Positions 14,803 through 43,054 of a stretch of 43,054 nucleotides of DNA are shown here, piece after piece. Under the pieces are notes generated by a model, which worked only from the letters and a program-made list of their open reading frames with translations, made no database searches and was not told where the DNA came from. Numbering within the stretch: the stretch's first letter is position 1; each line of letters begins with the position of its first letter. Source of the stretch: Proteromonas lacertae (Eukaryota); NCBI GenBank assembly GCA_002245135.1, contig NGBS01000056.1, positions 1-43,054 of the forward strand, written 5' to 3'. The position numbers and the translations under genes were made by a program.

Positions 14803-16571
14803 TTTTAGTAATATATATTTTCTTTTGTAGAATTTACATCTTTATATGAAAATTAGAACAAAATCTCCTCAGTAAGTTTATACATCCTCTCCATTCCAAT
14901 TCTTCTATCCGTTTTGCTCTCGTCTCTTGTACTGAAATCGACTTAATATCTCATAGGTAATTTTAACATCTTCCATAACCAAAATGCTATTCCTTAATAT
15001 GTAAAAATTTCATAATTACTAATGACATTCTATTTTTCCATTTTTTTGAAGAGATCTAAAATTATTTATATCATATCTGTTGTGCGCCGTTGAGCTAAAT
15101 GCGCCGTTGAGCGTTAAGAAGACTTTTTTCAATTCTAATATCATGAACGTAACCTCTGGCCTTTCAATATTAATAATCAACTTATTGCATTTACCTACTT
15201 AAAATTTATTTTGAAAAAACAGGCTTGAATGAGGCTTGAATAGATTTTTAATTTTTTCGTATTTAAGTGTCTTAACATCTAAATATGTGTGATTTAATTG
15301 CTTAAACAAACATGACTTTTGTTTATTTATTAATAATAATTATAATAATATTTCATTTGATGGACAGTTAATTATTATCACTCTTATTTATTTATTAAAT
15401 AAAAAGATAGATAACTTTGATAACGTATTATTATTTATAGATAATAATTTTAACAAATAATTCTTTTAATTACTTAATTATATATATTATTTATATTTTG
15501 TGTTTATTATTTATTTATTTATGCTGACAATTACTTTAATTATTGATTGATAAAAAAAATAAGATATAAAAATTTTTAGCTACTAAATACAAGCGAAAAT
15601 ATTGTTCATTTCATTTTTCATTCTACCCCATTCATAAATATTTGTAGCATGTGTTATTTTAACTATAATAATAACAACATAAATAATAAATAAATTATTT
15701 AATATTCAACAAGAAAAATCTACTTTCTATAATTCTTATTTGTAGTTCTTCCATTTCGAATGATAGATTTCTGTGTAAACTTAATTTAGTTTTATTATCA
15801 GCGAATATTATTTTTATGCTTGTCCCATTGCAGCATAGTGTATTAGGAAATAACATCTTGAGCGAATGACTTATAGTATTTGTAATATTCTTGACATATA
15901 TGTTGAAACTTTACAATTAATTATATTATACCTTTATATAGTCCGATTTCCTATTTAATAATACATTGAAATAAGTGACAACATAAGAAAAAAAAATAAT
16001 ATTCTTTTATATTCTCCGATTTCAAACTGTTTGTCATAATTTTTTGTATTTGATACTATTTTTGAATTGAATAATGTTAAACAGTAATAGAATTAATATG
16101 ATATTCGCCAGCATCGAACTTATTTTGTTAATATACCTGTGATTATATCGATTTCAACTAATGTTACACTTACTATCTATATATTATTATTTTCTAAATA
16201 TATTGAGTATAGTAACTACAGAATAAACTACAAAGAGCTATAGAGCCAACCAGACGAAATTGTTTCAAATATTCAAGTATTAAATCATATTTTGCTAAAT
16301 ATAACATTGAATCCTGTGATGCACAAACATAACTATATATGATAATACGAATTAGTCTCGATTTAGACATTTTAGGTCATTTTTATCATATTTCACTTCA
16401 TAGCTCCATATATTATCAGCCGTTAATTCACAATTTATAACAGAACCTATTAGATAAGTATATAGTGCATATACAATGCGTAGGCTCAAAAAATAAAAAT
16501 CAAGATAGTTTGTCAAATCAAAAGCTTGTGTTAAGAAATTTATTTTGCTTTTTTCTCATCCATTATCAGCT

Positions 16572-16799
16572 TAATAACAAAATAAACTGGAGATCCTAAG
16601 TGCAGTGATAATGCATAACTGATTTATGCACATAAAAGCGAAATGCAAAAATAGAGATTAATTATGTTTTCAATTAGAAATAAGAAAGCTTCAATTTTTT
16701 TAGAATAGATTAGTTATATGTTTTTGACCTAATTAAGTTTAATATCGAAGTTTAGAAACTATCGGACTAGCTAAAAAAAAGTAAGGCTCAAAATTTGAA
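16572..16799 (+). repeat. Dispersed degenerate repeat, copy 2
   Basis: Same orientation as copy 1, about 6.4 kb downstream. Confidence 0.75.
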
Positions 16800-23643: not shown

Positions 23644-26600
23644 ATGCGTTTGACAAGTTTATTGAGTATGTAGCCCTATTTTTATTATATAGTTTTGCTT
23701 GTTACGACTGTATCTGCACTTGAATGTTCATACGGAGTGGATAAAGTAAAAATTGGTTTATCTCAACCTTTTTTTCTTTTACCACCATTATGTGATTACA
23801 TTGATCCTCAATTTGTTTGTAATAGTGCTTTACCAGAAGGAATACAGTTTAATTCTACTTATGGAGGTTTTAATGGAGTTACCAATCAGAATGGCACAAC
23901 ATGGGAAGTGACTGTTGATGCATCATACTCAGGTCAGACTACTGCAATAAAGTTAACTTTTGAAGTAGGACAATTTGAAGATAATCAACCTGGTGTTACT
24001 GTGTTATATGCAGAAAGTCCAAGTAACAAAGAAATGGACCCATTATTCTTTGATAAAGTTTATTCAGGCCAACTATCATATGTTGCTTATCAATCAAATC
24101 AACTCAATATGAAGTGCTCAGACAGTGAGTATAAATCATGTCCATCTGCACTCGATATGGATATTACGAATATGTGGAACTATTGGTATTCATCTTTCAA
24201 ATCTCAAAATGACCAAGGATGGACATTCACAATGGATGTAGAAGATGAATATAACTTCTATATAGATAATGAACAATGTGTACTTGCAGAAAATACTGTT
24301 ACAAAAGTATTGTCAGAAGGTATTCATAATATCCAATTAAAAGCTATTAATTATGAATCAACTGCTAAATCATATGTTACTTATCAAAATACTGAAACAT
24401 CAGGTGAAACAGCAACTGAACCAGCTGTTGTTAGTTCTGAATACTTCAGTTCTTTGCCACCTGTTAATCAATATTTGAATTGGAGAACTTCTGATTTGAT
24501 ATTAGTAAAGAATCATTATCAAACTTTAACTGCTTATTATACTGGTTATTTAAGTTGGACAACTGAAACGAGTTTACCTGAAGGAATGTCAATTAAACAG
24601 TATGGTAGAATAGCTGGAACTCCAACAAAATTATCAGAAAATAAACCTTACAAAATCATTGGAAAATCATATGATAATACTTATTATAATACAACAATCT
24701 ATATGAAAGTATTAGATGACAAAAAAGAGAACATGATTCAAGGCTTAGATGGTTTATATTATGCATCTGCTGAAAGAGGTTGTGAATATAGAGAAATTGA
24801 TAGAACAATAGATTTCTTGAAATTTAGAAGAATTGATAAGAATGTGAATCATTTGAATGATGAACTTCAACAGTGGGATGGTTTAACAAGTACATTTGTC
24901 TCATCATTTACTGTTGATTGGACTGGTTTATTGAATGTTGAATATCCAGGTGATTATGTTTTCTTTATAACTGCAAATGGTGGTGTTAGATTTGAAATTG
25001 ATGGTCATTTAGTTGTTTCAAGTACTGAATGTTCAAAATCTACAAGTCAAGGTAAATATTCATTGAAATCTGGATTAGCTAATATTAAGTTATACTATTG
25101 GAAACCTGCTGGTGATTTGACTAAATTATTGAAATTAGAATGGTATCATTTATCATTAGGTAGACAAACAATTCCAGATTCAGCATTCTATCATATACCA
25201 AGATATCCAATATCTTATGATTATGAAACTTCTACTTATATCAAAGGAACACCAATTACTCAAAATTGTCCAACATTTGTTACTATTAATAAAAATGATT
25301 ATACTAATTATAAAATCACACCAAATTTACCATCTGGATTGAAAATGGATAGTAACACTCTTTGTATCAGTGGAACTATTGATGAAGAGAGAGAATCACT
25401 GAAAGATACATATTTTACATTGACTGCTGAACCAACTGTTGCTAGTGAGTTATCTCATCAACTTAGTACAAGATTTACATTATCATATGAAAGTTATTTA
25501 CCTCCTATTAGTATTACTTATCAACCAATCAATGGAAAGGTAGGTGAAGCTGTTTCATCCAAACCAATTATTGTTGGTGGTGGTTATTTAGTAGAAACAA
25601 GAAATGATTTACCAAGTGGTCTTAATTTGAATTCACAAACAGGTGAAATTTATGGATATCCATCTGAACCAGTTACTAATATGGTGGTTGAAATAATTGT
25701 TCGTAATGCAGCTGGTCAAATATCAGGATTTGTTACAATAACTATTGCTGATTGCGCAGCTGGAGAATATTTCTTTAGATTGAAGTACATTACTGGTTCT
25801 GGTAAAGGTTTAACTGTATCTGCAATGGCAAATGGCTATTCCTATTATATACAAGAAGATCATGAAGCTGATAAATTCTATGCAACTTATCAATGTATTA
25901 CTACTCCAAAAATCACTGTTAAATTCAGTCAAGTATCTGGAAGAGCTGGTACTTATAGTATTTATCAAAAATCAAATTATTTATTGGCATATGGTGAGTA
26001 TAATATTGGTAAACCAACTAATCTGGAGATTGATTTGGAAAATATTTCTGGAAAACCAGAAATTAAATATGATCCAATATCTTATTCATTTGTAGCTGGT
26101 GAATCTGTTTCATTTTACCCACAATTATTAAAATATGCTGTTACAGAGTATAGTTTATTTGAAGAATCGATTTTACCAAGTGGTTTATCTTTCAACAAAT
26201 CCACTGGTATGATATATGGTGAAGTTGATGCACAAACATCAGAAAGTGGATCGTTTAAGATTGTAGCAAAGAATAATGATGTTCAATCAGATGTAGTTAC
26301 AATTTCTTACACTCAATCATCAACATGTGAACAATCCAAAGTAATGGTTACTATTAAAGTGTTAGGAGGTAAAAGTGGACCAAATATGATATTAGTCGCT
26401 TCAGATTCATATGGCAATGTTATAACTAAATTATCAGGTTTAAAAGCTGGAAAAATTACACAGGTTAAGAAATGTTTAGCTGAAGGATCATACAATTTCC
26501 AATATGGTTCGTTAGATGGTTCAGCATGGGATGAATCATCATCAGTTGAATTATATAACAAAGATACGAAAGTAACAACATTACAGTTTATTGGTGGAAG

Positions 26601-29600
26601 TACAACTGCATTGTATAAGTTTTTATTACTTGAGCCAATTCCTACAAATGGACAATGGTCGTATTCATCAACTTATCAAGAAGATTGGAAAACTGCTCCA
26701 ACTGTATCATGGGAAAAAGCTGAAGGTGGAACATTCCCAAGACCAAATGCTACAAACACAATGTATTATAGATATAATATAAATATTGCTGATCCATCAG
26801 CTTATGGAAGATATGAAGTTGAAATAGATACTGATACAGGTTTTGTTTTTTATGTAAATGGAAGAGAACTTGTTAGAGATAGAATGCCAAAAGGTGAAAT
26901 AGCATATGAAACTAAATCTAATGCTGAAAAGAGTTTAAAGACTTTTACTATAATCGGTTTACCATCTGATTTTATTAGTGGAGATAATATAATTGCTGTT
27001 GAATCTCATAAAGGGGAATCTGAAGAATATGAAGAAGTAGATCCATTTACAGTAAGATTATCTCTCTATGATTATTCTTCAAATTGTTTAAATGTAGTTG
27101 GTAAATCAACTGGTAAAAATCCATCTGTTAAAGCTGTTTCTTCATCAAAAAACCCTGATTTAGAATGTGACACATGTGCTCAACGACTATTTGATGTTGA
27201 TGCCACAACGAAAATGTCTTTTAGTGTTTCTCTTGCTTCATATAGTCCATTAGAAATCGTTAGTAAGTTGATTAATAGATATACTGTATTAAACAGTTAT
27301 ATATTTGTCATAGCAGACGGTGATAGTTCAAGACATCCAAAGTCTTGGAAGCTTTATGCTACAACATATTTTGATAATGATAATACAAAATGGGAGTTGG
27401 TAGATGACAAATCATATATAAATTTACCTACAGAAAAATATACAAAGGTAACATTCACTGTTAATAATCCAACTACCAAATTATATAATGGATTTAAAAT
27501 CGCATTTACAGCACTTAGATATTCATGGTCAAATTACATTGAATTAGCCGATTATTATCCATCAATGTGTGGAGGTAATATGTGTTTAGCTACATATCCT
27601 TATCCTGCTACACCAGCTGGTTCAACTGCAAAAGTACCTTGTGTTGAAGGTTCTTCAAGCTATCGTACAAGATCATGTAAATCAGATGGAACATGGGATA
27701 ATGAAAATGTTAAGGAATGTACTGGAATTGATAGTTCCTTCTCATATCCAGATGTAGAAACATTAATGGTTTATGATTTAATAGATCCAATAAAACCAGT
27801 AATAAATGGATTAGTAGTGAATATAAGAGTAAGTGGATCTACACCATTACCTTCATCATTAACAGTTGATCCAGTTAGTGGTGAAATAAGTGGTATACCA
27901 AGAGAGACAATAACACCTGGTAAAAATTATTCAATAATTGCAGATACTCCAAGTGGTGAAATTACAGCCAATTTATTCTTAGAGATTAAAACTGCAAGTT
28001 GTGGAGATTCAGGAATATATCCAAATGAATTTCAAACCGTTAGATGTGAAATAGATCAAAGTGGTTATAGAACAAGAGAATGTTTACCAACATCACCACC
28101 TACATGGAGTAGTTGGGATGAAAGTGGTTGTACTAAAGGAAAAGCACCAAGATGCAATCTTACTATTACAGATTATATATTTACATTTAGACAAGCAATT
28201 ATTCCAATCAAACCAGATTGTGAAAATCAGTATAAAACAATTACTTTTGATAAGAATTTACCAACTGGTCTAACTGTTAATGAAAATGGAGAAATAGTAG
28301 GTACACCATTATCACCTATGAGAAAGTCACAGTATATAATGAAGATTATTACAGAAGATGGAGGTTATGATGAAATTACATTTTTCATTAGTGTATATGG
28401 TGTTTTGAAGAGTTGTAAATTGCCATATACAACAATTAATATACCACTAGATTCTTCAATAAAATTTGCTGAAGTTGTATGTGATGAATTAGTTGATGAA
28501 TATATTGCTGAAAACCTACCAAAAGGTTTTACAATTGATCCCAAAACATCCATAATAAGTGGTAAAGCAAGTGAAACAGGTGAATTTAACGCTAATATTA
28601 CTGCAGTTAATGTTTTAGGTTCTTATTCATTCACAGTTATTATTACAGCTGCTGATCTTGAAGATAATATATTATTGGTTGGAAGTCCAGATAAAACGGT
28701 TTATTCTTATGAAATGAATTCGTATGTAGATAAAGTAGTAAATGGTAACATGGAATTTGATTCAGCAGTAATGACAGAGAAATTTAGTGATTTTCATTCT
28801 GGTATTCCAGTAAATATTAATGGTATTATAAGAAATGAATATTTCTTATATGTTTTTTATGGTAATATAAGAATTGAAGAAGGCGGAACATATAAATTTG
28901 ACATTAAGGCAAATTATGATAAAGGTTTTTATATTGATGATATGTATAGTAACAGATGCGGTTATTCCACATGTGAAGTATCTGTTGATTTTGAAGCAGG
29001 AAGTGTTCATAAATTAGCATTCGGCTTTTATGATTCATTTACTAAACCAACATCTACAGTCTATACTGAATATAAATGGAAATGTCCGAAAATGATTGAT
29101 TATGAATTTATTCCTAATGAGATTTTCTTTAATACTGCATTATTTTTAAAGGAATTCTACTATCCTTCAAATGACTATATTTTTAATGTAAATCAGGATA
29201 TTGGTACAGTAAGTCCGATTATTGTAGGTTCATATACCAATATTACAGGACCAAAGAATTTACCAGCAGGATTATCATTAATAAATGGTGTATTACAAGG
29301 AATACCAACAGCTACAGTAAAAAGAACTGGTTATACAATCATATGTAATAGTAAAACATCTGTTATTGAAGTAAAGATTTTTATTACAGTTACTGATATT
29401 ACAATTGAAAATATGAATCATGGATTAGTAGGAAAATATTATACTTCTTCAGCTAGTATCCCTTGTAAGTATGAATCTGATCCAGATGAGGATAAATCAA
29501 ATACTTTATCTTATGAAAGAATTATCCCAACTTATTATCATGCACCATCAGCTGATGTTTGGGAAGGATTAAGTTCTGCATTTACATCTCAATATATAGC

Positions 29601-32600
29601 AAAGTGGGAAGGTTATTTGGATGTTACTGAAAGTGGAACATATGATTTTATCTTAGCAGCTGAAGATGGAGTAAGATTAATAATTGGAGATACAGTTATG
29701 ACAACTAAATCTTGTGGCTCAACCACTGTATCAAAGGAAGCTAGTTTAACTGAAGGTTTAACTCCAATCAAAGTCATTTACTGGAAAACAACAAACAGTG
29801 TTGTAAAAGCTGTTAGTATAAAATGGTCAAAATCAGCTAACAACCAAATTCCACTTCAAGAAATACCTGAAGCATCTTTATATTATAAACCAGCATCATC
29901 ATTGACTTACAATTATCCAATAGCAGTTTATCTTGTTGGTAGAGAAATACCAAAGAATGTTCCAATATTCTATACAATAGATCCAAATGATTTTAAATCA
30001 TTTTCTTGTAATCCTCCATTACCAAATGGTTTATTCTTAGATGCTACAAATGGTGAAATTACTGGTAAACCACTTCAAGTAGCTAAACTAGATACTTATA
30101 CAATTACAGTTGTAGGTAAAGATTATGATGAACAAACATTTACTATAAAAATTGCAGTAGATCCATATTCTCCACCACATAATTTAAAATACCAAGAAAT
30201 AAATGTATTGTTAAATGAAGAAGTAAATGTTAAACCAACAGTTGAGAATGGTGAAGATTTGACTTTCTATACAAATGATGTATTACCTCTAGGGTTGATA
30301 TTAGACAAAACTACAGGTGTTATTAGTGGTAATCCATCTTCTCCATATGATAATAGTATAACTGTTTATTGTTCAAATCCATCAGGTACAATAAATGCCA
30401 TAGTAAAAATAAAAATATCAGGATGTGAATTAACAACGACTTATGTTGAAATAGAATATTCAATAGGTAATAAAGAAATTGGATTTGTATTGATAGACAA
30501 AGATGACAATAGAGTTATAGAACAAACTAGTGGAAGTATTGATGCATATACAAGTAACAAACTAAAGTTTTGTATTGTAGAAGGTAAAATAACATTCATT
30601 TTAAATAGTACTGCAAAATTAGGTGGTTGTTATGCTATCCGTAATAATGGTAATCTTATCAGAAGTGGAGAATATAAAGATGTATTAGATAATATTGAAT
30701 TTGTTTTTGACACTTCAATTACTACACCAAAAATTTTAAAATATGAATCAGTAGATGATATATTCTACAGTAATATAGAATATAAATTCTATCCAGTTTT
30801 AGAAGGAGGTGCTTTACAATTCTTTATAGAAGATGAATATAAATGGCCAATTGGATTTTCATTAGATAAAAATACAGGTGTAATTACAGCAAAGTTAGCT
30901 TCAGGAACAAATAGTTATACATGTGATGTTTATGCAACATCTTCATCTGGTGTTAGGTCAAATACTTATTCTTTAAAAGTAGTAAGAACAGAATGTTTGG
31001 ATTCAATGGTAGGTGGTTATATATCAGCTGTAGAAGATGGAAATAATATGATTGTTGAAATGTTATTAGATGATAAAGTAGCTTTTTCATATTCAGGTTT
31101 ACCTTCAACATATTCTCGTTCATTTACATTTTGTTCATCTGCAAAATTAATAACAATGAAATATGGAAGTATTGATACAAAGAAGTGGAATAGTAACTCT
31201 ACCGTAAGTATTTTGCTTGTGAATAAGAAAACCAATTCATTAAATCATAAAGAAGATGGAGATATTGAAACTTTTACAAAGGAATTATATTCATTTGTAG
31301 ATGGAAAATCAAAATGGCAAGTTACAACCAATGAACCAGCTAGTAGTTGGATTGATGAATATCTAATCCCAACACCTAATGGATGGACTGAATATACATT
31401 TTCATCATTACCTCTTCGTGAAAAGATCACTACTTATTATAGAACCAAATTTACGTTTAATGATGATATAAGAAATATCACTTCATTGAATTTATATGTT
31501 ACATTTGATGCTGGTATAATATTGTATCTTAATGGAGTTGAGTTCTATAGAAGAAATTTACCATTAACTGGTGCTTATAATAACCGTCCAGCAATGAAAT
31601 ATTTTGATCCACCAATCGCAAAATCAATTTCAATTGGTCCACATTTGATAGTTAATGGAGATAATGTCTTATCAGTTGAAGTTCATAAACATGATAATAG
31701 TGAATATGCTGATCCATTAAATATGTTGCTATTACCAGTTTTTAATGAAATTGAGAATTGTCAAGTTAAGACTTTGTCAGCAACTGCTAAACCAACAATG
31801 AGAGCAGAATTGAAAGGTGCATCTCAAGAATATATTAATCCATTAGAAGGTGGTTATGATTTAAATCTTGAAACAAAATTTGTAACTGGTCAATTACCTT
31901 CAACAGTAAATGTTGATGTAAACTTTTATTGGCCTGATGACACAGCAGAATATTTCAATGAATTAGTATATATGAATTCTATAGATAGTCAAAGAGATCC
32001 AACAGATTATGAAATTTATGGTACATATGATGCTGATACTCCTGAATGGCTTTTATTAGGAAGTTATGGTCCAGTAGAAGATATTAGAGATTATACAACT
32101 ATCATAAATATTAATAATATTGACAGATCATATGAAGGATATAGATTCCATGTAAAAGCAGTAAGAGATACATCAACTGGTTGGGGACATTCATTGCAAA
32201 TTAAAGAATTTTTGGCTTTACAGTGTAAACCAGTTTATTGTGAAGAAGAAATGAAAAATGGAATAATGTGGAAGACTACAATTGCTGGTAATAGAGCTTA
32301 TGCTAAATCATGTGATGCTGATCAATATGGATTTAAAGAAAGATTATGCAGTAATAATAATAAAACTGGCGATATTTGAAGAAATAATAGATCATTGTGG
32401 TAAAAAACCAACCAAAATTGAATATCCAGAAATAATATTCTTTATTAATGAAAATTCTAATTTCACTCCAACAGTTGATGGTGGTATTGATAGTTATACT
32501 ATTGATTGTAAATTACCTCATGGTCTTCAATTTGAGACAAGATATGGTATTATAAAAGGAACTCCTGATATTACTGATGAAGTAAAAGATACTAAATGTA

Positions 32601-35437
32601 AAGTATATGGAATGTATGGAGATAATTATATTGTTGTAAATATTACTATTAGTACAAGATATATTCAATGCAAAGATGAGAATGGTATTTATCCTAATAC
32701 TGATGGTGGTAAATATGCTGAAGCTGCTTGTGCTTATGGATATGAAGGATTGAGAACAATTTATTGTGATAATTCTGATCCATTAGCTCCAGAATTTAAA
32801 AATGAAAATACTTCCGATTGTGTAATGTTAAAACCAACAATCAAATACTCCTTGGACACTATGACTTTACATTATGATGATCCAGTTGAATTTGAACCAA
32901 CAATATTTGGAGTAGAATATGAAGTATCATGTGATTCCTTGCCTAGTGGTTTGACTATAGATCCTAAAACAGGTAAAATCACTGGAAATGTGAAAGAAGC
33001 CACAGATTCAAACGGTAAAGTAGTTAAAGTTACTATTACAAATGCTGCAGGATCAAATACTGCTGAATTTACATTAATTATTAAAGATTATGCAGCTGAA
33101 TTAACTTATAGTTTCTCAAAATGGACATTCTATGTTGGTTTTAAGAATGAAACAACAGGTGTTTCTATAAATGGTACAAATGTGAAATTATTAAGAATGA
33201 ATCCTGAATTACCAAAATCTCTAACTGTTAATTTAGAGAATGGTGTTATATCAGGTAAAGTAGATGAAGGAACAAAGGAAAGTAGCGATACATATCAATT
33301 AATAGGTAGTAATTCTGAAGGTGAAGTAGAAAGTAATCCAATAACATTACAAATAATTCAACCAAAATGCCCTCAAAATGGAAGTTGGCCAGAGACAAAT
33401 AGTGGAGGAATAGCTATTTTAAACTGTCCAATTCATTATTCAGGAATTATGACTAGATTTTGTTCTAGAGAAATAAATCCAGTATGGCAAGAACCTATGA
33501 ATATGTGTGTGAAAAAAGAGTTATATTGTGAAGATGAAAATCATGTTTGGCCTAAAACTGAGGGAGGATATAATGTAACAATAACTTGTGGAAAAGGTTT
33601 TGTAGGTAATAGAACAAGAGAATGTGTATTAACAGATAATGATGAAACATATTTTGGTAATGAAGATAGAACTGGTTGTACAGCTGTTGATCCATCTATT
33701 AAATATGTAAGTGAAGATATGGTATTTGCATTAGATGAAGAATGTCCAGAGAATATTCCAGTCTTGAGAGACTTAAAACCTGATTCATATTTATATATTG
33801 TCCCAGCAATCCCAGAAGGAATGAGTTTTGATAATAAAACAGGTAGAATATCAGGAACACCAAGGAGATCTCAAATTAGAACAGATTATACAGTAGCAGG
33901 ATATGGCTTAGATGATGCTATGTATTCCACAACAGTTTACATTCAAATTACATCCGATTACACTAAATATATATTATATACTCGTCCTGATATGACATTC
34001 TATATTGGATTAAATGATTTGTCTCAAGAAGTTCCAAGAAAAGATGGTATAGTAAAGAAATGGTATGTTTTACCAGCATTGCCTAAGAACTTAGAAATAG
34101 GTACAGATGGTAAGATTTATGGAACAGTTGAGACTGGAACTCCATTATTAACAACTAAACATACAGTTTATGCTGAAGTAGAATTGACTAATCTAACTGC
34201 TCAAATAACTATAACAGTTAAACAGTCAGTTTGTGAAGGTGAAGTGTATAATGGTATTACTTGGCCAACAACAAATGGAAATGAAACTGCAATCGGTGAA
34301 TGTCCACCTAACTATGAAGGTACTCCAACAAGATTCTGTCCAATATCATCAAATGGTGATTGGTCAAATGATATTGTTGGTGAATGTATATCAAAAGCTC
34401 CATCATTTGAATATCCATCAACAACTTACAATTTAATTGTAAATACAAATATGACAAATATTGAACCAATCAATGTAAAGAATTCACCAAAATCCTATAT
34501 ATTAAGTTGTGATAATAGTGTTTTATTATTTGGAATTCGTTTTGATGATACTACAGGTATTTTCTCTGGTAGTCCAACTGACATATTTACAGCAAAATGT
34601 ACTGTTTATGCTAGAAACGATTTTGGTAGTTCTGCTGATGTTTCAATAATAATGAAAGTAACAAAGCCTCAATGTAAATATGAAAATGGATGGAAAGCAA
34701 CTGATGTTAATAGTTTTGCTATTTTACCATGTGAAACAGATTATGGTGTTATGTATAGAAAATGTTTAGAATTCAATGCAACTGATGGAGTATGGTCCAA
34801 CGAAATTGACAAGAGTCAATGTGTTAATAAACCTGTTGATCCTGAAAATGACTTTGTTAAATATGTATCATTAACATTAGATATAAGTGGTGTATCAAAT
34901 TCAGTTGATGATAATGCAGAGTTAGAAATTAAAGAGGCTGTTAGCAAAATATTAGGTATTGATGTAAGTAACATTTATATAAAAATATTAAGTAGAAGAA
35001 TGAGAAGATTTATGAGAAATTTACAAACAACTACTGCATCTACAAAGATTCAAGTTTACATTAAGACTGATGAACCAGAGAAAGTATCATCTGTTTTAGA
35101 AAGTGAAATAATTCAAACAGAAATAACAAATACATTAAAACAAAGTACAAAGACAGATATATTTAGAAACAGTGAAATAAAGATGGAAGTTGAAGCTGTT
35201 AATAATTCAGATGATGATAGTAGCAACTCTAATACAGGTGCAATAGTTGGTGGAGTTATAGGTGGTTTGGTTCTTTTGCTTATCATTGTTTTGGCTGTGA
35301 TATACTTCATCAGAACAAGCAATGCTGGAAGATTACGAGTAAAATCAAGAGCAAGGTCATTAACTCAGCCAATGAATAAAAGAGGTTCAATTGCTAAGGA
35401 TGAAGATGGTAAACAAACAGGAGTTGTTAGAATGTGA
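23644..35437 (+). CDS. Giant (~3,900 aa) type I membrane surface protein with He_PIG-type Ig repeats, PA14, jelly-roll carbohydrate-binding-like and HRM-like Cys modules
   Basis: Signal peptide MRLTSLLILLVTTVSA after removing 27-nt intron 23666-23692. Many LPxGLxxDxxTGxIxGxP repeats; PA14 FTVDWTGLLNVEYPGDYVF; WPxTxxG...C...RxC modules; TM GAIVGGVIGGLVLLLIIVLAVIYFI. The two ORFs join through one extra A near 32362-32365. Confidence 0.88.
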
Positions 35438-36282
35438 GTTTAAAAACTTATTATTATTATAACTATTATGAATATATATATATATATTTTCATATACTGT
35501 TTGCTGTTGGTTTAAAAAGGAAAAATAAAAAATGAACCGGATATATTTCCAAAATGAACTTGGCTTGAAAAAAGCTTGATTAACAATCTTTTCTAAAAAT
35601 GTCGAGAAGAACAATAGAAAATGAGTATAAAGTATGTCAAGCATATATGTATAACCGTAAGAATATCACTGTATGTGGGTAAACCGTACCAGACTATTCT
35701 TAGGTGCCTTCTACAGGTAAGAATAAGCGATTTGAGTGTGAATTAGTTTTTGGTACGGGTTATACTGGAGCAAGCGGTGAATTTAAAATTGTGTATATAT
35801 TTTAGTGTGTGAATAAATTTATGGGTTAAAATTTATTTTTATGTTTTTAATAGTTTGTAGTGTAGGATAGTAGAAATAAAGTGTATAAATAGAAAGGTAG
35901 CTACCTGTTCTACCCCGGCAGGGTAGCTACTTTATATAATAAGAAATGTATTTCTATGTAAGTAAGTAGCGTGTCCTGTGTAGCCTAGCTAGGACTTAGT
36001 GATTAAATAGTGTGGTGGCCAAGCTACAGAATACGTTCTTACTTTTTTTTAGTTATTTTTTCATTTATCAAATTAATAATGGATTTATATAGTGTAGTTA
36101 AAAACATTCAAAAGAATTTAAATAGTATCAAAAATATATATTTAAAGAATTATCTGCAGTATTCTATATTTTTTAATAAATCGAAATTCTGACGAGAAAC
36201 TGTTGTTATAAACAGAAAAAAGAAACAGTTTTGATTTTCCTGATATTTTAGAAAAACCGTTTTTATCAAAAAAATATAAAAT

Positions 36283-36762
36283 ATGTGTGCTTCAGTAAAC
36301 TTTGCTTTCTTTTGTTCATTTAGAAATAATGAAGATTATTTAGATAAGTGTATATGTGGAACATGTAAGTTTTACTTATATTTTAACCATAATATAAGTG
36401 CAGTTTTAGATAGTCCATTACCTAAGGAAGAGATAAAGTCTTATAATGAATTCTGTGCTATTTGTCATCAAAAGATGTGGACAAAGTACAGTGATAAGAG
36501 ATATTACATGATGCTTTTCGATATTAAACCATCAGTAAAACCAAGAGGATTAAATAGACATTATTTTGCAGTGTTTGATAAGTATATTGAATGGTTAACA
36601 CTACCTGAAGGAATGGGAAGTGTTCATTTGAAGAAGAATCCTATGCTGAAACATTATGTAAAGAAGAATTATATATTTGATGATAGTGATGATGATGAGG
36701 AAGAAGAAGCACAAGAAGAAGTTAAAGGAAACAATGATCAAACTACGATAAACATACTCTAA
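36283..36762 (+). CDS. Hypothetical viral protein with two CxxC pairs (putative Zn-binding) and an acidic tail
   Basis: CICGTCKF...FCAICHQKMW; DDSDDDEEEE; intronless. Confidence 0.6.
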   Translation: MCASVNFAFFCSFRNNEDYLDKCICGTCKFYLYFNHNISAVLDSPLPKEEIKSYNEFCAICHQKMWTKYSDKRYYMMLFDIKPSVKPRGLNRHYFAVFDKYIEWLTLPEGMGSVHLKKNPMLKHYVKKNYIFDDSDDDEEEEAQEEVKGNNDQTTINIL

Positions 36763-36897
36763 ATTTTAAAACGAATCTTTATCTTAAAATGATTTGGGAC
36801 AGGGTTTAAAAATATGCGTAATTTAATAAAAATCATATAATATAATAAAAATATAATAAATTTTATAATAAACATAATAAAATAATCATAATAAAGA

Positions 36898-37683
36898 TTA
36901 AAATGGTTCTGTAACACCTGTATCCATCCACTCTGTTATAATAACTTGAGGTGGGAATGCTTGATATGAATATGCATCAAGACCTTTTCGTTCTATATAA
37001 AGATTACATTTATTATTATTATTTCTTAATATAGGCCAAAAACATCCATAATCATTAATTGCAGGTTGTGAAGTTTCATTTATTACACCTTGTATAGGGA
37101 AGTATATTCCATTACTACCATCTACAAAGTATGTTTCTAATAATTTGTTATAATATTGTTGCAATAAATCTTCTTTACCTGGTTCAGCTTTAATAACATG
37201 ATTGTCATCTAGATATAATATAAATCCATAACCATCATCATGATTTTTTAAAACAAGGCCATTGTATATCTTGATTCTCATAAAATGTTCAAACATTTGT
37301 ATTTTTATAGGTACTTTTACAGTAGATTCATATTGATTGATCGAACCATCTTGAAATATATAGAAATTAACTGACCAATATGTATATTCAGTATGCAATA
37401 ATTTAGGTGATACAGAATTATTAACTATTGTAGTACTACCTCCAGAGCTATTATTTACAACATTATATATTTCTTGACATTTACCATATATAGTATTTGT
37501 AGTAGTTTTGATATCATTAACAGGTGTAATAATATTATTTATTTGAGTATCAGTATGATTATTAATAGGTTTAACAATAGTATCAGGATCAGTAGGTTGT
37601 ATATTTATTTTGTCAGCTATATCTTTAGCAAGCTTATCTGTATCAATATTTATATCTGAAGTATTTCGTTCCCCAATAAACAT
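36898..37683 (-). CDS. Hypothetical viral protein, possible fibre/spike
   Basis: Likely ATG 37683 (MFIGER). N-terminal I/N/T/D heptad-like stalk, SSGGS linker, beta-rich aromatic C-terminal domain. Last gene of the capsid module. Confidence 0.5.
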   Translation of the reverse strand: MFIGERNTSDINIDTDKLAKDIADKINIQPTDPDTIVKPINNHTDTQINNIITPVNDIKTTTNTIYGKCQEIYNVVNNSSGGSTTIVNNSVSPKLLHTEYTYWSVNFYIFQDGSINQYESTVKVPIKIQMFEHFMRIKIYNGLVLKNHDDGYGFILYLDDNHVIKAEPGKEDLLQQYYNKLLETYFVDGSNGIYFPIQGVINETSQPAINDYGCFWPILRNNNNKCNLYIERKGLDAYSYQAFPPQVIITEWMDTGVTEPF

Positions 37684-37727
37684 TTTTTGAATTAATAAAC
37701 AATAAAATAACAAAATTAATAAAAACA

Positions 37728-38489
37728 TCAAGAAACTTCAGAATGATCTTCAATCAAAATATTAAAGTTAGCTCTAAACACTTTTTTAACATTATCAATA
37801 TATAAGAAGTTATATTGTGGCTTAGTAACAGCTAAATATAACTCTTTAAATGTTTCATATTCAGGTATCCATATATTCAATGAGTTGTATAAGTCAAACA
37901 AATTTCTATTACTCAATCCATAAAATGTTAAACAATAATCTACTTGTGATCTTGCTGAAGGTACTATATCAGTAATATATTGACTACTAATTATAATTTT
38001 TGATTTTAAATGTCTATTTTCTTTCATTAATACTGGTATGATATTAGCTGTTTTCAACTCTAAACTAAGATCATCAAATATTATAATATGTTCTGCATAC
38101 TCAAAATTATCTTTGTTTGTATCATCAATTGATTTCATTAACTTCTCTACTAAATTATCTCCTGAATAAGGTTCAAATAATGAATCGTTTTCATCATAAC
38201 TAATTTCATTATAATCTAATAACTCTTTAATTGAATCATATATCCTATCTTGTTTAATTGTACCTACGAAAAAATGTACATGTTGTTTTTTCTTATATTT
38301 TGGATCTATAATATGTCTTAATATATTGTATATCAAAGTAGTTTTCCCACTGTTCTTACGAGCTACAATAAATATATTGCAGAAAGGCTCATTAAAGTAA
38401 TCATATCCCAGAATTTTCTTAGGATCAAAAGACTCACCACCATCAACAGGTTCAATTTGTATATTATTTATTTTTTCAAATTTAAACAT
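37728..38489 (-). CDS. A32-like (FtsK-HerA) virion packaging ATPase
   Basis: Walker A IFIVARKNSGKTT, Walker B HIIIFDDL, then KENRHLKSKIIISSQY and IVPSARSQVDY. Likely ATG 38489. Confidence 0.93.
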   Translation of the reverse strand: MFKFEKINNIQIEPVDGGESFDPKKILGYDYFNEPFCNIFIVARKNSGKTTLIYNILRHIIDPKYKKKQHVHFFVGTIKQDRIYDSIKELLDYNEISYDENDSLFEPYSGDNLVEKLMKSIDDTNKDNFEYAEHIIIFDDLSLELKTANIIPVLMKENRHLKSKIIISSQYITDIVPSARSQVDYCLTFYGLSNRNLFDLYNSLNIWIPEYETFKELYLAVTKPQYNFLYIDNVKKVFRANFNILIEDHSEVS

Positions 38490-38559
38490 AGTGTGTGTAT
38501 ATATTATGTAGTGAGAAATCAAAAAATAAAAATAGAAGTCAATAATAAAGTATTATTAC

Positions 38560-39977
38560 TTATACTACCTTTTCAACACCTCTTGGTCCAATAATCAATT
38601 GTTTACCAGTAATTATGTAGAACTTATGATGAATTGTATATGGATTATGATTAGCATCAAATCGTTGATTTGAGCAATCCAAAGTAATTTTTAAATCACT
38701 TGCTAAGTCTTTACCAGCTCTTAATTTTAATTCAGTTAATCGATCAGTACTGAAATTTAGAACATCAAAAATGAATTGGGAAATGATAATGTATTACATT
38801 TATCAAATATTGTATTTTGAATAATATTTCTCATATATTCCCATGTCTGATATTTTGCAGGATATAAATAATCAGGTGTATAAACGAAATCATTAATTTG
38901 CCATCTTATTCTATCTTGATCTTGATCAAAAGGAATAGTATCTCTATTATATGCATCATTATAATATGCTCTGTATAATATATATTTAACATAACTTCCT
39001 ATGCTACTATTAATACTGAAGTTATAGTTAAAAGTATTACTACCTGGAATTGGATCTTTAGTGATTTGAACTATATTAAAGTCAGTAAAGTCAATAGGAT
39101 GATGAGTTGAATAATTAATGGTATTAGCATTACATGTTGGATCTTTATTGTAACAAATGTAAAGTCTAGGATTAATAATTTTCATTCCTACATGCTGTTG
39201 CCATGAATTAATCCAAACAGAACCATTGCTATGATGAATCCAATTCATTATAGGAGCAAATGTGAATTGAATATAAATGACTTCACCAAAATAAATATCA
39301 TTCTTCAAAGCTAATATGGTATTATAGAAATCTGCAAAATGAAATCTACAGTATAGTTTTCCATGTAATATATCTTCTGTTGTTCCCATTTCTTCCCAAT
39401 AATTCCAAACACCTCCATTTGCATTTAAAGTAGAATTAGAATTACATATAGTTGTTTCAGCTATTTTATTATTTCTAATGCGTAAGCCATCAAATAAATA
39501 TTCATAATAATGATAATCTTTTATATCATAAGGATACTGGTTAGCAATTTGATGAGCTAAATCTCGATATTCATTATAACTACTATCTAAATCACATAGA
39601 AGTGTTCCAGTTTTATTGTATACTTTGATAGTTCCAAAATTCATTGAATTCCTTAAATTTATATGATCTAACATTTTACCAGTAGTAGAATCAGTTACAG
39701 GTGTAATAGGTAATTTCCATTGTCCTTTACCTGCATCTGCATGATCTCTTTTTTGACCTGTAGTATAATCTAATTCAAATTCAAAGTAACTTTTAGATAG
39801 ATTAACACAATTATCACCAGATATTTCAAATGTAATAGCATCACTGTTTGAATTTAAAGATAAAACAGTCTCATTTCTGCTTTGGTTAGGTGTAACTAAA
39901 ATATGATTGTAGACAGGTATATAAGCTGGCACAATGCTTTCATGTTTTTGTGAATTAGGTACAGCAGTGATTGACAT
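38560..39977 (-). CDS. Putative double jelly-roll major capsid protein (~470 aa after correcting one frameshift)
   Basis: DAITFEISGDNCVNLSKSYFEFELD N-terminus typical of PLV MCPs; beta-rich; sits between the penton-like and ATPase genes. Adding one T to the T-run near 38767-38771 extends the frame to ...KQLIIGPRGVEKVV* at 38560. Confidence 0.8.
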
Positions 39978-40030
39978 ATTTTATGTTATTTTTTAAAAAT
40001 CAAAAAATGCTTAAAATAGCAAGAAATTTA

Positions 40031-41002
40031 TTAATACAAAATAATCTCAAAATAAATAGGTAAGTTATTTAAATCAATTGCATAACCATCTTGTTGAGAG
40101 ACTGATATATTCATTCGTTGATATTCGTGATATTGCATCTTTTTAGTTGTCCATTCAATTTGTGGATTAGTGAATGTAGTATAATCTGCATTTATATCAG
40201 TTACAGGTATATTTGCTAAAACCATTGAATTCTCACCACTATTAACCCAGTCACATCTAATTTGTATGAATGACACCCATAGTAAAGAAGGCTGATTTGG
40301 TAACAAATTAGAATAATAATTAAAATCTTTACTGAAATATGCATCACTTAAATGATTTGCATGATAAATTGATATACTTTTATTTATTTCATCTAAACCA
40401 AATAACTTATATGCTAAGTTAGGGAATTCCATACTAAAATCTGTAAAGTAATATTTTCCGAAATGAGTAATATAATTAAATTGTAACTTTAATCTATTTT
40501 CTGAAGTTTTTTCAAATTGAAGTACATCTGTTTGATCATCTACTTTATGAAATGGAAATCTATTTGCAAAATCTTCATCAGGTAATGGTTCCACTCCATT
40601 ATCAAATGCATAAAAAGTAAAACTTAAGAGATTTCTAGCAAAATAATCTAATAATTCTTTTCCTGTATATTTTCTTTGAGGTATTTTAATATCAATAGTT
40701 TTATTATAAGGTCCATTTTGGTTTTCAGGGTATGCCCATTTTATTGGATTTGTTTCATCTGGATTAATGCAGCTATAATAAGTAAAATTAAAGAGTATAT
40801 GATCATTTACTTCATCTTGTACTGTATAGAAGTTATTTGGAATAACTGCAGTAATTAAACTCATATATTGATATTTTTCAGTTATAGTTGGAGTATTAAT
40901 ACATCTTGTCCATCTATTTGAAAATTTTGAATCATAGTCTGATGTAGTTAAGAACAATGATCTTCTATTATTTATAACATTATTACTATCTTTAGGTTGC
41001 AT
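40031..41002 (-). CDS. Putative minor capsid (penton) protein
   Basis: SLITAVIPNNFYTV, IKIPQRKYTGKEL, AYKLFGL, VLANIPV, ISVSQQDGYAIDLNNLPIYFEI match the motif order of PLV/virophage single jelly-roll pentons. Confidence 0.8.
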   Translation of the reverse strand: MQPKDSNNVINNRRSLFLTTSDYDSKFSNRWTRCINTPTITEKYQYMSLITAVIPNNFYTVQDEVNDHILFNFTYYSCINPDETNPIKWAYPENQNGPYNKTIDIKIPQRKYTGKELLDYFARNLLSFTFYAFDNGVEPLPDEDFANRFPFHKVDDQTDVLQFEKTSENRLKLQFNYITHFGKYYFTDFSMEFPNLAYKLFGLDEINKSISIYHANHLSDAYFSKDFNYYSNLLPNQPSLLWVSFIQIRCDWVNSGENSMVLANIPVTDINADYTTFTNPQIEWTTKKMQYHEYQRMNISVSQQDGYAIDLNNLPIYFEIILY

Positions 41003-41085
41003 TATGATTTATAATTGTTGAGAAATATTAAAATATAATTTTATTTGAATTATTCTTTAATTTATATATCGTTATATATATATAT

Positions 41086-42276
41086 ATGCAACCACAACCA
41101 CAAGTTAACAATTCAAATGATGAAGAAGATGAACCAACAGATGATGATTATGAATATGAAGAAGATGAAGATAATGTACCTATTGATATGAACAGAATAA
41201 GACATAGAAGAAGACATAGAAGGAATCAAGTCATACCATTTCAAGATATAAGCGAAGATGATTTGAATAACTATGTGAATCAAGAAGTGAAAAGATTTAA
41301 CAAAGCATTGATTATGCAATATAGACTAATTCCTATAGGATGGCCAAATCATGAATTTAATAGAATATATAATTTATATGATGAACATATGAAAATGTTT
41401 AATTGGTGTAAGAATTTATTTGTAACAGGTCCTTTTGCACATGGCAAACCATTAGAAGCTTATAATCCAAAATTAGCAGGAAATGAAAATTCTGCTAATG
41501 CAAGAGAATGTGGAATATTTAAAACTCGTATAGCAGATGGTATTGATAAATTGTGTATGGCATCTGATTTTATATTACAAAGAAATCCATTTGTTGTTTT
41601 ACATCCAAAAGAGAGAATAGGTGTTACACAACTAGAAAATAGAAGAATTAAAAAAACTCATTATGAAATTGATGAAAGACATCCAGAACCAGAAAATGAT
41701 TTTAACATAATGAATAATGAACATTATAATAGTGCAGCTGAAATAAGAGCGGAAAATGTTATGCAAAATAGACATGATAATATGGTAAGAGGAGTATTAG
41801 TAAATGCAGACAATGGAAGTAATGATAATAACAATAATAACAACAATGGAAATAATAACAATGATAATAATGAAAATAATAACAATGCAAATTATGATAT
41901 AATTAGCTTTTGCGATTCTCTGAAAGATAAGATAAAGTTCTACATAGGTCGTTTAATGAGAACTAAATTTTGGTATTTAACAAATCAAAAAGAAGAAACA
42001 GCTTATTCAATTGCATTAATCATATACAACTGTGTAACTGATTTGTATATATTAGCTTTATATTACATACCAATATTAAAAGATAAGTTAAGTGGTAATT
42101 ATCAAAATGATAATGAATATACTTTACCATATCATCCTGATAGAAGAAATTTTATGGGATTACCAGATGGTGATAATAGAACAGGATATAGATATAACTA
42201 TTTAGCAACTATACAAAAAATATTAACAGAAGCGCATGTACCACAAGGTCAAATCAATACAAATATATTTTGCTAA
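41086..42276 (+). CDS. Hypothetical viral protein (acidic N-terminus, basic RIRHRRRHRR patch, Asn-rich insert)
   Basis: 396-aa intronless ORF divergent from the capsid module. Confidence 0.65.
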   Translation: MQPQPQVNNSNDEEDEPTDDDYEYEEDEDNVPIDMNRIRHRRRHRRNQVIPFQDISEDDLNNYVNQEVKRFNKALIMQYRLIPIGWPNHEFNRIYNLYDEHMKMFNWCKNLFVTGPFAHGKPLEAYNPKLAGNENSANARECGIFKTRIADGIDKLCMASDFILQRNPFVVLHPKERIGVTQLENRRIKKTHYEIDERHPEPENDFNIMNNEHYNSAAEIRAENVMQNRHDNMVRGVLVNADNGSNDNNNNNNNGNNNNDNNENNNNANYDIISFCDSLKDKIKFYIGRLMRTKFWYLTNQKEETAYSIALIIYNCVTDLYILALYYIPILKDKLSGNYQNDNEYTLPYHPDRRNFMGLPDGDNRTGYRYNYLATIQKILTEAHVPQGQINTNIFC

Positions 42277-42292
42277 TCCTATAACTTTTTAG

Positions 42293-43054
42293 AATGAATA
42301 GAGCTTTAGATACGCAACTTAACCGTCAAATTAACATAGAAGATCAGTTCCAGCTTATGTTGGAATGAATGTTGCAGATCATAGAAATTGGAGATATGTT
42401 GCACCAGCTAATTATCCTCCTGCTCATCCATCAATTACTGCAGATTGATTGATAGAAATGTCAATGCATTTTATAATGGCATCACCTGCAAATAGTGATA
42501 GTGAAGATAATGATAATAATCCATCAAGTAGTGATACTGAAGAAGATTCAGACACTTATGATCTTGGTGATATGAGTAATCAAATACCACCTCCTCCTTT
42601 GCCACCAAGACCTATGCCAGCAAGAACTGATCAACAACAACCACCTCCACCTCCTCCTGTATCAAATGTATCTAGATCTAATGTAATTAGTTTAGGTAAT
42701 CAATTTAATCCTCATCATCTTATACATCTGATAGATTTTCATTTTTAGTATCAGATGATTTGCTTAATGCTATACAAATCCAAATAGAGACTTTAATAAA
42801 TCTCATAGATTTTTAGCTAATAGAGAAAATGGCGCAAAAATAGGTGTAACTAGGATAATACAAGAGTTTTATACACAATTGTTAACAAATAATGGTAAAA
42901 TCTATTCATTGATGCATTTATACATAACCATAATCCACCTTGTACAATTGTAGATGAAAATTCAAGCAAGAGTTATATGTTCTTTACTGATTGGGTTAGA
43001 GAAGAAAACATCAATTTACCTTTATTACCTAGATCTAAATTTAATGCAACTGAA
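42293..43054 (+). CDS. Fragmented, frameshifted hypothetical viral ORF with acidic and poly-Pro segments; runs off the window
   Basis: Coding-like segments in alternating frames from ATG 42293 (MNRALDTQ; YVGMNVADHRNWRY; PPPPLPPRP; RFLANRENGAKIGV; MFFTDWVREENINLPLLP). Confidence 0.45.

What the first reader, a model, noticed from the sequence alone, without database searches (positions are those of the whole stretch)
35645..43054. Endogenous Polinton-like virus integrated in a Blastocystis-like protist genome
Seen: about 200 bp after the stop of a host gene, architecture switches to intronless compact ORFs including a clear A32 ATPase and MCP-like and penton-like genes, read mCP>MCP>ATPase>fibre-like on one strand. 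Known: this trio is the morphogenesis module of Polintons, PLVs and virophages (Preplasmiviricota). Inference: an integrated, largely intact and divergent DNA virus of an anaerobic gut-type protist. No protease, integrase or polymerase is visible in the window; absence of a protease would favour PLV over Maverick or virophage. I cannot tell whether this lineage has been described.
Basis: partly seen in the sequence, partly recalled or inferred. Interest (0 to 1): 0.9.

Follow-up and report, generated by a model that had tools for sequence, protein, structure and literature searches.

The report
Integrated Polinton-type virus in gut protist
Beside intron-bearing genes of a single-celled eukaryote (likely a gut protist of the Blastocystis/Proteromonas group) lie a DNA-packaging ATPase gene and predicted capsid genes that likely form one end of an integrated Polinton-type virus, from a capsid family that has likely been catalogued already but not described.

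Summary
Real, but less new and less intact than claimed. The minus strand carries mCP (40031-41002), MCP (38560-39977), an A32 ATPase (Pfam Pox_A32) and a predicted trimeric fibre-like ORF. An intact homologue of the MCP (51% identity) folds as a double jelly roll (Foldseek E about 1e-11). In the window the MCP frame breaks near 38,770 and the last ORF is in pieces; three host genes also break frame, so assembly error is plausible. The window ends inside the element. Close relatives (36-92% identity) were found only in Logan contigs. By eye, the MCP matches the unnamed cluster of 285 endogenous MCPs listed for Proteromonas lacertae in the supplement of Bellas et al. 2023, where 10 Blastocystis assemblies had none. 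By profile comparison (probability 99.6%) it is a divergent relative of PaM1-type capsids. Those relatives often share the gene order and encode a protease (23 of 50 loci), so 'no protease, hence PLV not Maverick' fails. The junction, termini, integrase and host genus could not be tested. Verdict: new member of a known kind.

The parts
23674..35437 (+). Host gene flanking the element: giant membrane protein with He_PIG Ig-like repeats, PA14 and HRM domains; frame break near 32,370
   Evidence: Pfam He_PIG E 2.8e-54 and 4.3e-28, PA14 E 9.8e-15; break shown; He_PIG (IPR008009) proteins are an expanded family in Blastocystis ST7 (PMC3129679)
35641..36040 (.). Non-coding G-rich block with short palindromes; candidate left terminus (TIR) of the element, not proven
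   Evidence: GC 34% and G 23%, against GC 14-25% in seven other intergenic blocks; two exact GTAGCTAC palindromes, the only exact ones in the window, pattern chosen after seeing it; DNA fold of 35860-36040 z -2.0, 6 of 200 shuffles as good
36283..36762 (+). 159-aa ORF with two CxxC pairs and an acidic tail; probably viral, function unknown
   Evidence: only a sub-threshold zinc-finger hit, E 0.072; no PHROG hit
36898..37728 (-). Fibre-like ORF (276 aa from the first ATG, which overlaps the ATPase stop; 261 aa from the second ATG); predicted homotrimer through an N-terminal coiled coil
   Evidence: complex prediction on the 261-aa form, three copies: score 0.39, best control 0.00, pLDDT 45, runs share at least 52% of contacts, interface residues 15-77; Atlas hits all below 0.9
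37728..38489 (-). A32-family DNA-packaging ATPase, 253 aa, intact
   Evidence: Pfam Pox_A32; 107 homologues among 445 candidates; Walker A and B columns conserved in 21 aligned rows
38560..39977 (-). Major capsid protein, double jelly roll; reading frame broken near 38,770 (406 aa plus a separate C-terminal piece)
   Evidence: 7 homologues at 39-71%; homologue P0002 model pLDDT 75.9, pTM 0.79; Foldseek to PBCV-1, mavirus and Sputnik capsids E 1e-11 to 2e-10; both pieces hit the HMM of environmental MCPs, E 1.3e-22 and 0.0039
40031..41002 (-). Minor capsid (penton) protein, 323 aa, intact; assignment by homology and position, fold only weakly supported
   Evidence: 6 homologues at 36-59%; E 4e-9 to the HMM of the ORF family that lies beside the MCP in relatives; Foldseek best E 0.04 to adenovirus penton derivatives; VIA-align Z 4.4-6.6 to adenovirus and mavirus pentons, none at 8 or above
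41086..42276 (+). 396-aa intronless ORF of unknown function, divergent from the capsid module; not a protease
   Evidence: Pfam only RB_B E 0.099; no PHROG hit; no hit with the relatives' protease HMM
42294..43054 (+). Proline/acid-rich reading frame in several pieces, cut by the end of the window
   Evidence: three-frame translation; ORF lists

Best explanation
This is likely the left ~7.4 kb of an integrated linear dsDNA virus of the Polisuviricotina, a divergent relative of PaM1-type Polinton-like viruses, in the genome of what is likely an AT-rich opalinatan gut protist (Proteromonas or a Blastocystis lineage). Shown: the gene order, the A32 ATPase, and the double-jelly-roll fold of a close MCP homologue. 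Inferred: the missing right part carried a replicase (pPolB or primase-helicase), an integrase (rve type more likely than tyrosine recombinase) and possibly a protease, as relatives do. The element would have entered the chromosome through that integrase between terminal repeats. When a complete copy is activated, MCP trimers would build an icosahedral shell with mCP pentons at the vertices carrying the trimeric fibre, and the ATPase would package the genome. Whether this copy can still do so is open: the MCP frame break is either an assembly error or a real lesion (roughly 60:40).
For: ATPase family. MCP fold from P0002, 51% identical over 96% of the window's 406 aa. Profile-profile match to environmental MCPs: probability 99.6%, E 6.3e-24, 401 columns. 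One of those MCPs (L043, 518 aa) lies on the contig whose gene is the reference MCP of cluster MMPC_100/PC_0391 (PaM1) in Bellas 2023 Table S5. Same order and strand mCP>MCP>ATPase in 16 of 36 loci that hold all three genes. rve integrase plus pPolB in L024, rve plus primase-helicase in L054, C48 protease in L015. A homologous MCP cluster occurs 285 times in an opalinatan genome, so endogenisation of this family is the norm there. Element and host share GC and GC3. Three host genes also break frame, and Bellas 2023 reports that such breaks in endogenous viruses are often artefacts. MCP, mCP and ATPase clusters in Logan share longest-contig lengths (10216, 9425 and 5898 in all three), which suggests the trio travels together.
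Against: No reads across the junction, no second terminus, no target-site duplication and no integrase in the window, so integration rests on the assembly alone. The window's own MCP was not folded; a homologue stood in. The mCP model is poor (123 of 323 residues under pLDDT 50) and has no structural match at E<=0.001. Direct BLASTP of the window MCP to the PaM1 reference is weak (25% over 87 aa, E 7e-7). In 10 of the 16 same-order loci the protease lies just upstream of mCP on the same strand, and the small ~130-aa gene between MCP and ATPase is common; the window has neither there. The match to the Proteromonas sequence is by eye only. The right end has several breaks within 760 bp, more than the host genes show.
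Confidence: 0.8

Rival explanations
1. The copy is a decayed provirus: the MCP frame break and the broken right-hand ORF are real, so it cannot make particles and is at most complemented by other copies. This is a variant of the best explanation, not an alternative to integration.
For: MCP break near 38,770; several breaks in 42290-43054; many MCP predictions listed for Proteromonas are short, 304-371 aa against 450 for the representative.
Against: ATPase, mCP, fibre-like and 396-aa ORFs are open; the ATPase is 92% identical to a Logan protein with a short end branch of 0.049; host genes carry the same kind of break.
Confidence: 0.35
2. The join is an assembly chimera: a host contig was fused to another copy of a multi-copy element, or to a free viral genome from the same culture.
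For: The window ends inside the element; multi-copy elements mis-assemble often (PMC10120064); no read evidence was obtainable.
Against: The host gene ends cleanly with its stop and is followed by an AT-rich flank and then a distinct non-coding block where a terminus is expected; none of the 20 largest direct or 25 longest inverted repeats listed is a near-identical repeat at the join. Even if mis-joined, the virus would still belong to a host of this composition.
Confidence: 0.1
3. It is a virophage-like parasite that replicates only with a co-infecting giant virus and protects the host population. This concerns lifestyle, not ancestry.
For: Several PLVs behave this way (10.64898/2026.06.19.733378); hundreds of copies per genome fit this pattern.
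Against: No helper is known from what I read: gut egoviruses show no gene flux with Blastocystis (10.1101/2024.03.23.586382). Nothing in the window bears on dependence.
Confidence: 0.2
4. The genes are host genes or domesticated viral genes, not part of a mobile element.
For: No compositional contrast with the host.
Against: Complete morphogenesis trio in viral order, no intron candidate inside any of these ORFs on its coding strand, viral folds.
Confidence: 0.03

Closest known systems
Proteromonas lacertae endogenous MCP cluster (Bellas et al. 2023, PMC10120064, Tables S1, S3, S4; cluster 26 by my column count, marked 'new', no group name)
   Same: The printed 450-aa representative shares motifs in the same order along the whole visible length (by eye; two five- and six-residue window motifs retrieved that row); same Foldseek top hit (PBCV-1 capsid); host of the same group, genome GC 27.0% against 27.6% here.
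   Different: The representative looks only about 30% identical to the window MCP (estimate by eye), lower than the Logan homologues (39-71%). The main text does not mention the cluster and I saw no gene map. Whether this copy is one of the 285 was not determined.
PaM1 group of Polinton-like viruses (MMPC_100/PC_0391; Paulinella, dictyostelids, Physarum; likely the VC20 group of PMC7805220)
   Same: Full-length MCP homology, ATPase 26-39% identical over full length, homologous mCP, same mCP>MCP>ATPase order in 16 of 36 loci.
   Different: MCP identity only about 22-27%, at or below the 25% used to define the clusters; the window's ATPase forms its own 13-row clade (SH-aLRT 99); no ~130-aa gene between MCP and ATPase; no protease beside the mCP; larger mCP (315-324 aa against about 265-280 in the same-order loci).
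Blastocystis MELD virus (Starrett et al. 2021, PMC8502044)
   Same: A mid-size linear dsDNA virus with divergent virion proteins in a gut opalinatan; it has PolB and integrase.
   Different: No sequence was available to compare (supplement search found nothing); no NCBI-sourced protein appeared among the MCP or mCP homologues. Relationship untested.
Gosseviruses (GKS1) and Maverick-Polintons (Polintoviricetes)
   Same: Same morphogenesis module; protease in the wider group; PaM1 is placed inside the Polintoviricetes clade in a gene-content tree (10.64898/2026.10.13.758929).
   Different: The printed GKS1 MCP (576 aa) shows no visible similarity to the window MCP (by eye); pPolB, rve and protease are not in the window.

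Membership tests
Polisuviricotina / PLV in the broad sense | Double-jelly-roll major capsid protein | tested here: met
   Model of the 51%-identical homologue P0002 matches PBCV-1, iridovirus, mavirus and Sputnik capsids, E 1e-11 to 2e-10; the window's own broken ORF was not folded
Polisuviricotina / PLV in the broad sense | A32-like packaging ATPase | tested here: met
   Pfam Pox_A32 above cut-off
Polisuviricotina / PLV in the broad sense | Single-jelly-roll minor capsid protein | tested here: inconclusive
   Top structural rows are pentons but E>=0.04 and Z<=6.7 on a half-confident model; homology to the ORF family beside the MCP in relatives E 4e-9
Polisuviricotina / PLV in the broad sense | 15-40 kb linear genome with terminal inverted repeats | not testable with these tools
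   Window ends inside the element; no genome held; only a candidate left terminus
Endogenous viral element | Joined to host DNA, confirmed by reads, target-site duplication or empty site | not testable with these tools
   Contiguous with intron-bearing host genes in the assembly; no read data obtained
PaM1 group (MMPC_100) | MCP clusters with the PaM1 reference at 25% identity over 30% of length | tested here: inconclusive
   Window MCP against L043 MCP: 25% over 87 aa; P0005 against it 25.9% over 263 aa; profile homology certain. A relative, not shown to be a member
Proteromonas MCP cluster 26 | At least 23% identity over 100 aa to the cluster's MCP (the paper's assignment rule) | tested here: inconclusive
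   Clear motif-by-motif match by eye to the printed, cut sequence; no computed alignment
Maverick-Polintons (Polintoviricetes, strict) | pPolB, rve integrase and adenain-like protease in the element | tested here: inconclusive
   No protease hit in the 7.4 kb present and no Pfam hit of these kinds in its ORFs, but the element is truncated; present in relatives
Gosseviruses (GKS1) | MCP detected by the GKS1 profile | not testable with these tools
   Profile not available; printed GKS1 MCP looks unrelated by eye
Virophaviricetes | Virophage-type MCP and penton | tested here: inconclusive
   No Pfam hit for the window's MCP or a virophage family for the mCP; virophage capsids are not ahead of nucleocytovirus capsids in the fold searches; sequence relatives are PaM1 type

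The most novel reading that the evidence does not exclude
An unnamed lineage of Polinton-side viruses specific to gut opalinatans, derived from PaM1-type viruses of free-living amoebae and rhizarians. It has lost the small inter-gene and moved or lost the protease, is still circulating (intact MCP, mCP and ATPase variants on many Logan contigs), and is here integrated in an AT-rich Blastocystis lineage where earlier screens of 10 assemblies found nothing. It would be a resident DNA virus family of the commonest gut eukaryotes.
Probability: 0.3. Interest if true: 0.65.

Novelty: new member of a known kind. Interest (0 to 1): 0.4.

Why it matters
Endogenous Polinton-like viruses are common in protists, and a homologous capsid cluster is already tabulated for Proteromonas, so the integration itself is not surprising. 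What this adds is a placement that I did not find in print: the orphan opalinatan cluster is a divergent offshoot of the PaM1 group, with at least 13 ATPase variants at 47-92% identity in public sequencing runs. That gives probes for asking whether Blastocystis and its relatives carry active DNA viruses, and whether the Blastocystis MELD virus belongs to the same lineage.

Tried and rejected
No whole genome is held and no read data could be had, so copy number, right end and junction stay open. MCP-based scans of viral, metagenome and prokaryote-genome contigs found no close relative; only the ATPase alignment reached loci. Sequence search of the MCP against PDB gave 0 hits at E<=10; Pfam and PHROGs gave none for it. 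None of 9 window proteins is in the 15-billion collection as an exact sequence. The search of 50% representatives never ran (queue full six times). The wide VIA search of the mCP model did not run. The ATPase tree is the quick one; the careful search did not finish, and it holds no reference virophage, Maverick or Aquintovirus rows, so it shows a clade but no class. A recalled Blastocystis downstream motif is not enriched (103 matches against 94.6 expected), so it says nothing on the host. Rfam found nothing. The Atlas search of P0002 returned capsid-bearing clusters at 0.96-0.97 with low recognition (1669), weak support only. Earlier findings of this scan: none. Rejected: Gossevirus or virophage assignment; 'protease absent, so PLV'; host identification beyond the opalinatan level.
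Full report
Observation. The window is 27.6% GC and holds eukaryotic genes with short AT-rich GT-AG intron candidates: 16 candidates of 26-57 nt in the host part, some overlapping, against 2 beyond 35,440, neither inside a viral ORF on its coding strand. A giant He_PIG/PA14 membrane-protein gene ends at 35437. After 846 bp without a long ORF come a 159-aa ORF (+), four minus-strand ORFs (fibre-like, ATPase, MCP, mCP), a 396-aa ORF (+) and a fragmented frame that runs off the window. The MCP is not one frame: it stops after 406 aa, and the piece 38560-38793 in another frame matches the C-terminus of homologues.

What the genes are. The ATPase hits Pox_A32 above its cut-off and has 107 homologues among 445 candidates; 13 of them, all from Logan, are 47-92% identical. 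The MCP has 7 homologues among 819 candidates (39-71%) and the mCP 6 among 282 (36-59%), all from Logan. I folded the intact homologue P0002 with a 45-row alignment: pLDDT 75.9, pTM 0.79. Foldseek returned double-jelly-roll capsids: PBCV-1 E 9.6e-12, mavirus 4e-11, Sputnik 1.8e-10, and the same class in BFVD. The mCP model is half confident. It has no match at E<=0.001, though its top rows are adenovirus penton derivatives, and on realignment ranks 2-29 are adenovirus and mavirus penton entries at Z 4.4-6.6, with unrelated folds from Z 3.4 down. The fibre-like ORF was predicted as a trimer: score 0.39, best control 0.00, pLDDT 45, runs sharing at least 52% of contacts, with a heptad-like interface over residues 15-77. 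That mark was reached by 21 of 30 solved homo-pairs and 0 of 23 single chains in a calibration that used two copies. It supports, but does not show, a coiled-coil fibre.

Relatives with context. The ATPase alignment fetched 87 loci (7 viral contigs; the best 80 of 184 metagenome matches). A profile of the 8 close MCPs found MCPs among their 686 ORFs down to E 1.7e-22. The two MCP sets align over 401 columns at probability 99.6%. Of 50 loci with an MCP (some are duplicates), 23 carry an ORF with an adenain-like H/D/Q/C motif, 36 hold all three core genes, and 16 of those 36 have the window's order and strand; in 10 of the 16 the protease lies just upstream of the mCP. Pfam confirms a C48 protease in L015, rve plus pPolB in L024, and rve plus primase-helicase in L054; my tyrosine-recombinase label for L003 rests on a recalled motif and was not confirmed by Pfam. 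In a quick, unfinished ML tree of 98 ATPases the window groups with 12 Logan proteins (SH-aLRT 99). Left out were P0011 (short), P0061-P0114, five near-duplicate loci and loci without an MCP; no reference classes were included. MCP, mCP and ATPase clusters share longest-contig lengths of 10216, 9425 and 5898, from which I infer that the trio lies on the same contigs.

Comparison with print. In the supplement of Bellas et al. 2023 (PMC10120064; I saw passages, section 9, parts 27-28 and search rows of file 2, which is cut in the store) Proteromonas lacertae has 285 MCPs in one cluster and 10 Blastocystis assemblies have none. The printed representative matches the window's MCP motif by motif by eye, and two window motifs retrieved that row. 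By my column count it is cluster 26, marked new, with no group name; the main text never names Proteromonas. The same supplement uses a gene of the contig behind L043 as the reference of MMPC_100/PC_0391, the PaM1 group, and its 518-aa span fits L043's MCP. So the environmental relatives are PaM1 type. A 2026 preprint nests PaM1 within the Polintoviricetes clade (10.64898/2026.10.13.758929; abstract, first part of section 10, passages). Another places the protease-bearing gosseviruses and VC35 there and does not mention Proteromonas, Blastocystis or PaM (10.64898/2026.06.19.733378; parts 1-2 of 5 and passages); its supplements, which hold the HMM set, were not seen and may bear on the classification. 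A third notes PLVs in P. lacertae as a separate cluster (10.64898/2026.07.28.741278; passages). Starrett et al. 2021 describe a Blastocystis MELD virus with PolB and integrase (PMC8502044; section 3.4); I could not compare sequences. PMC7805220 (passages) describes the amoeba-linked VC20 group with pPolB and RVE in two elements. Searches for Blastocystis+Polinton (5 papers), Proteromonas+Polinton (1) and two broader ones showed no description of this lineage's genomes; most subscription journals are outside the library.

Host. Short introns and He_PIG proteins fit Blastocystis (PMC3129679; passages). Published GC values are 39-55% for human- and rodent-derived Blastocystis, 21.5-23.1% for tortoise isolates and 27.0% for P. 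lacertae (PMC12129017; passages and section 5). The window's 27.6% is nearest the last, but one gene-rich window cannot decide. I call the host opalinatan by inference.

Integration and intactness. The assembly joins host and virus, with a G-rich, palindrome-bearing block at 35641-36040 where a terminus is expected. There is no compositional step, no second end and no read check. Frame breaks also occur in three host genes, including one just before the AMP-binding motif of an acyl-CoA synthetase, so indel errors are plausible and the MCP break may be one. The cluster of breaks in the last 760 bp could be a poor contig end or real decay.

Mechanism. Most likely (0.8) this is one end of an integrated virus. 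Shown: ATPase family, gene order, capsid fold of a homologue. Inferred: integrase, replicase and termini beyond the window, and virion assembly from MCP trimers, mCP pentons and fibre with ATPase-driven packaging. Dependence on a giant virus is possible but unsupported; gut egoviruses show no gene flux with Blastocystis (10.1101/2024.03.23.586382; passages).

Verdict. A real endogenous Polinton-type virus fragment and a new member of a known kind. The added value is its link to PaM1 and to an undescribed set of close relatives in public runs. Interest 0.4.

Noticed in passing
window:11159-14802: Large host gene with two P-loop (STAND-like) NTPase regions, weak nSTAND3 and ATPase_2 hits, a coiled-coil insert and a frame break near 12,880. 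It recalls Crinkler/RHS-type architectures (recalled, not tested).
   Followed up: partly
window:17477-23381: Host gene for a very large alpha-glucan enzyme: amylase-like region with CBM48, then a starch/glycogen synthase GT5 domain and a second CBM, apparently one fused gene with short introns.
   Followed up: partly
window:6745-7900: Old-yellow-enzyme-type NADH:flavin oxidoreductase with short introns, Oxidored_FMN E 7.2e-33; a possible bacterial transfer, not tested.
   Followed up: no
window:10164-10229 and 16551-16616: A 66-nt direct repeat (77% identity) on either side of the STAND-like gene; could mark a mobile or duplicated unit.
   Followed up: no
window:~1,820; ~12,880; ~32,370: Frame breaks in three host genes, suggesting indel errors in the assembly.
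   Followed up: partly
window:37728-37730: The ATPase stop codon overlaps the first ATG of the fibre-like ORF by one base; which ATG is used is unknown.
   Followed up: no
P0023, P0032, P0033: Related ATPases (35-37%) come from a Lithocolla globosa data set in EukProt, one on a 10.5-kb contig, which points to PaM1-like viruses in a nucleariid.
   Followed up: no
L043 and 40 other loci: A conserved ~130-aa gene of unknown function sits beside the MCP in PaM1-type loci (42 ORFs in 41 loci) and has no clear counterpart in the window.
   Followed up: partly
P0002 (Atlas): The top look-alike cluster is 53% eukaryotic with Fornicata commonest, a lead to related capsids in anaerobic metamonads; low recognition score.
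   Followed up: no
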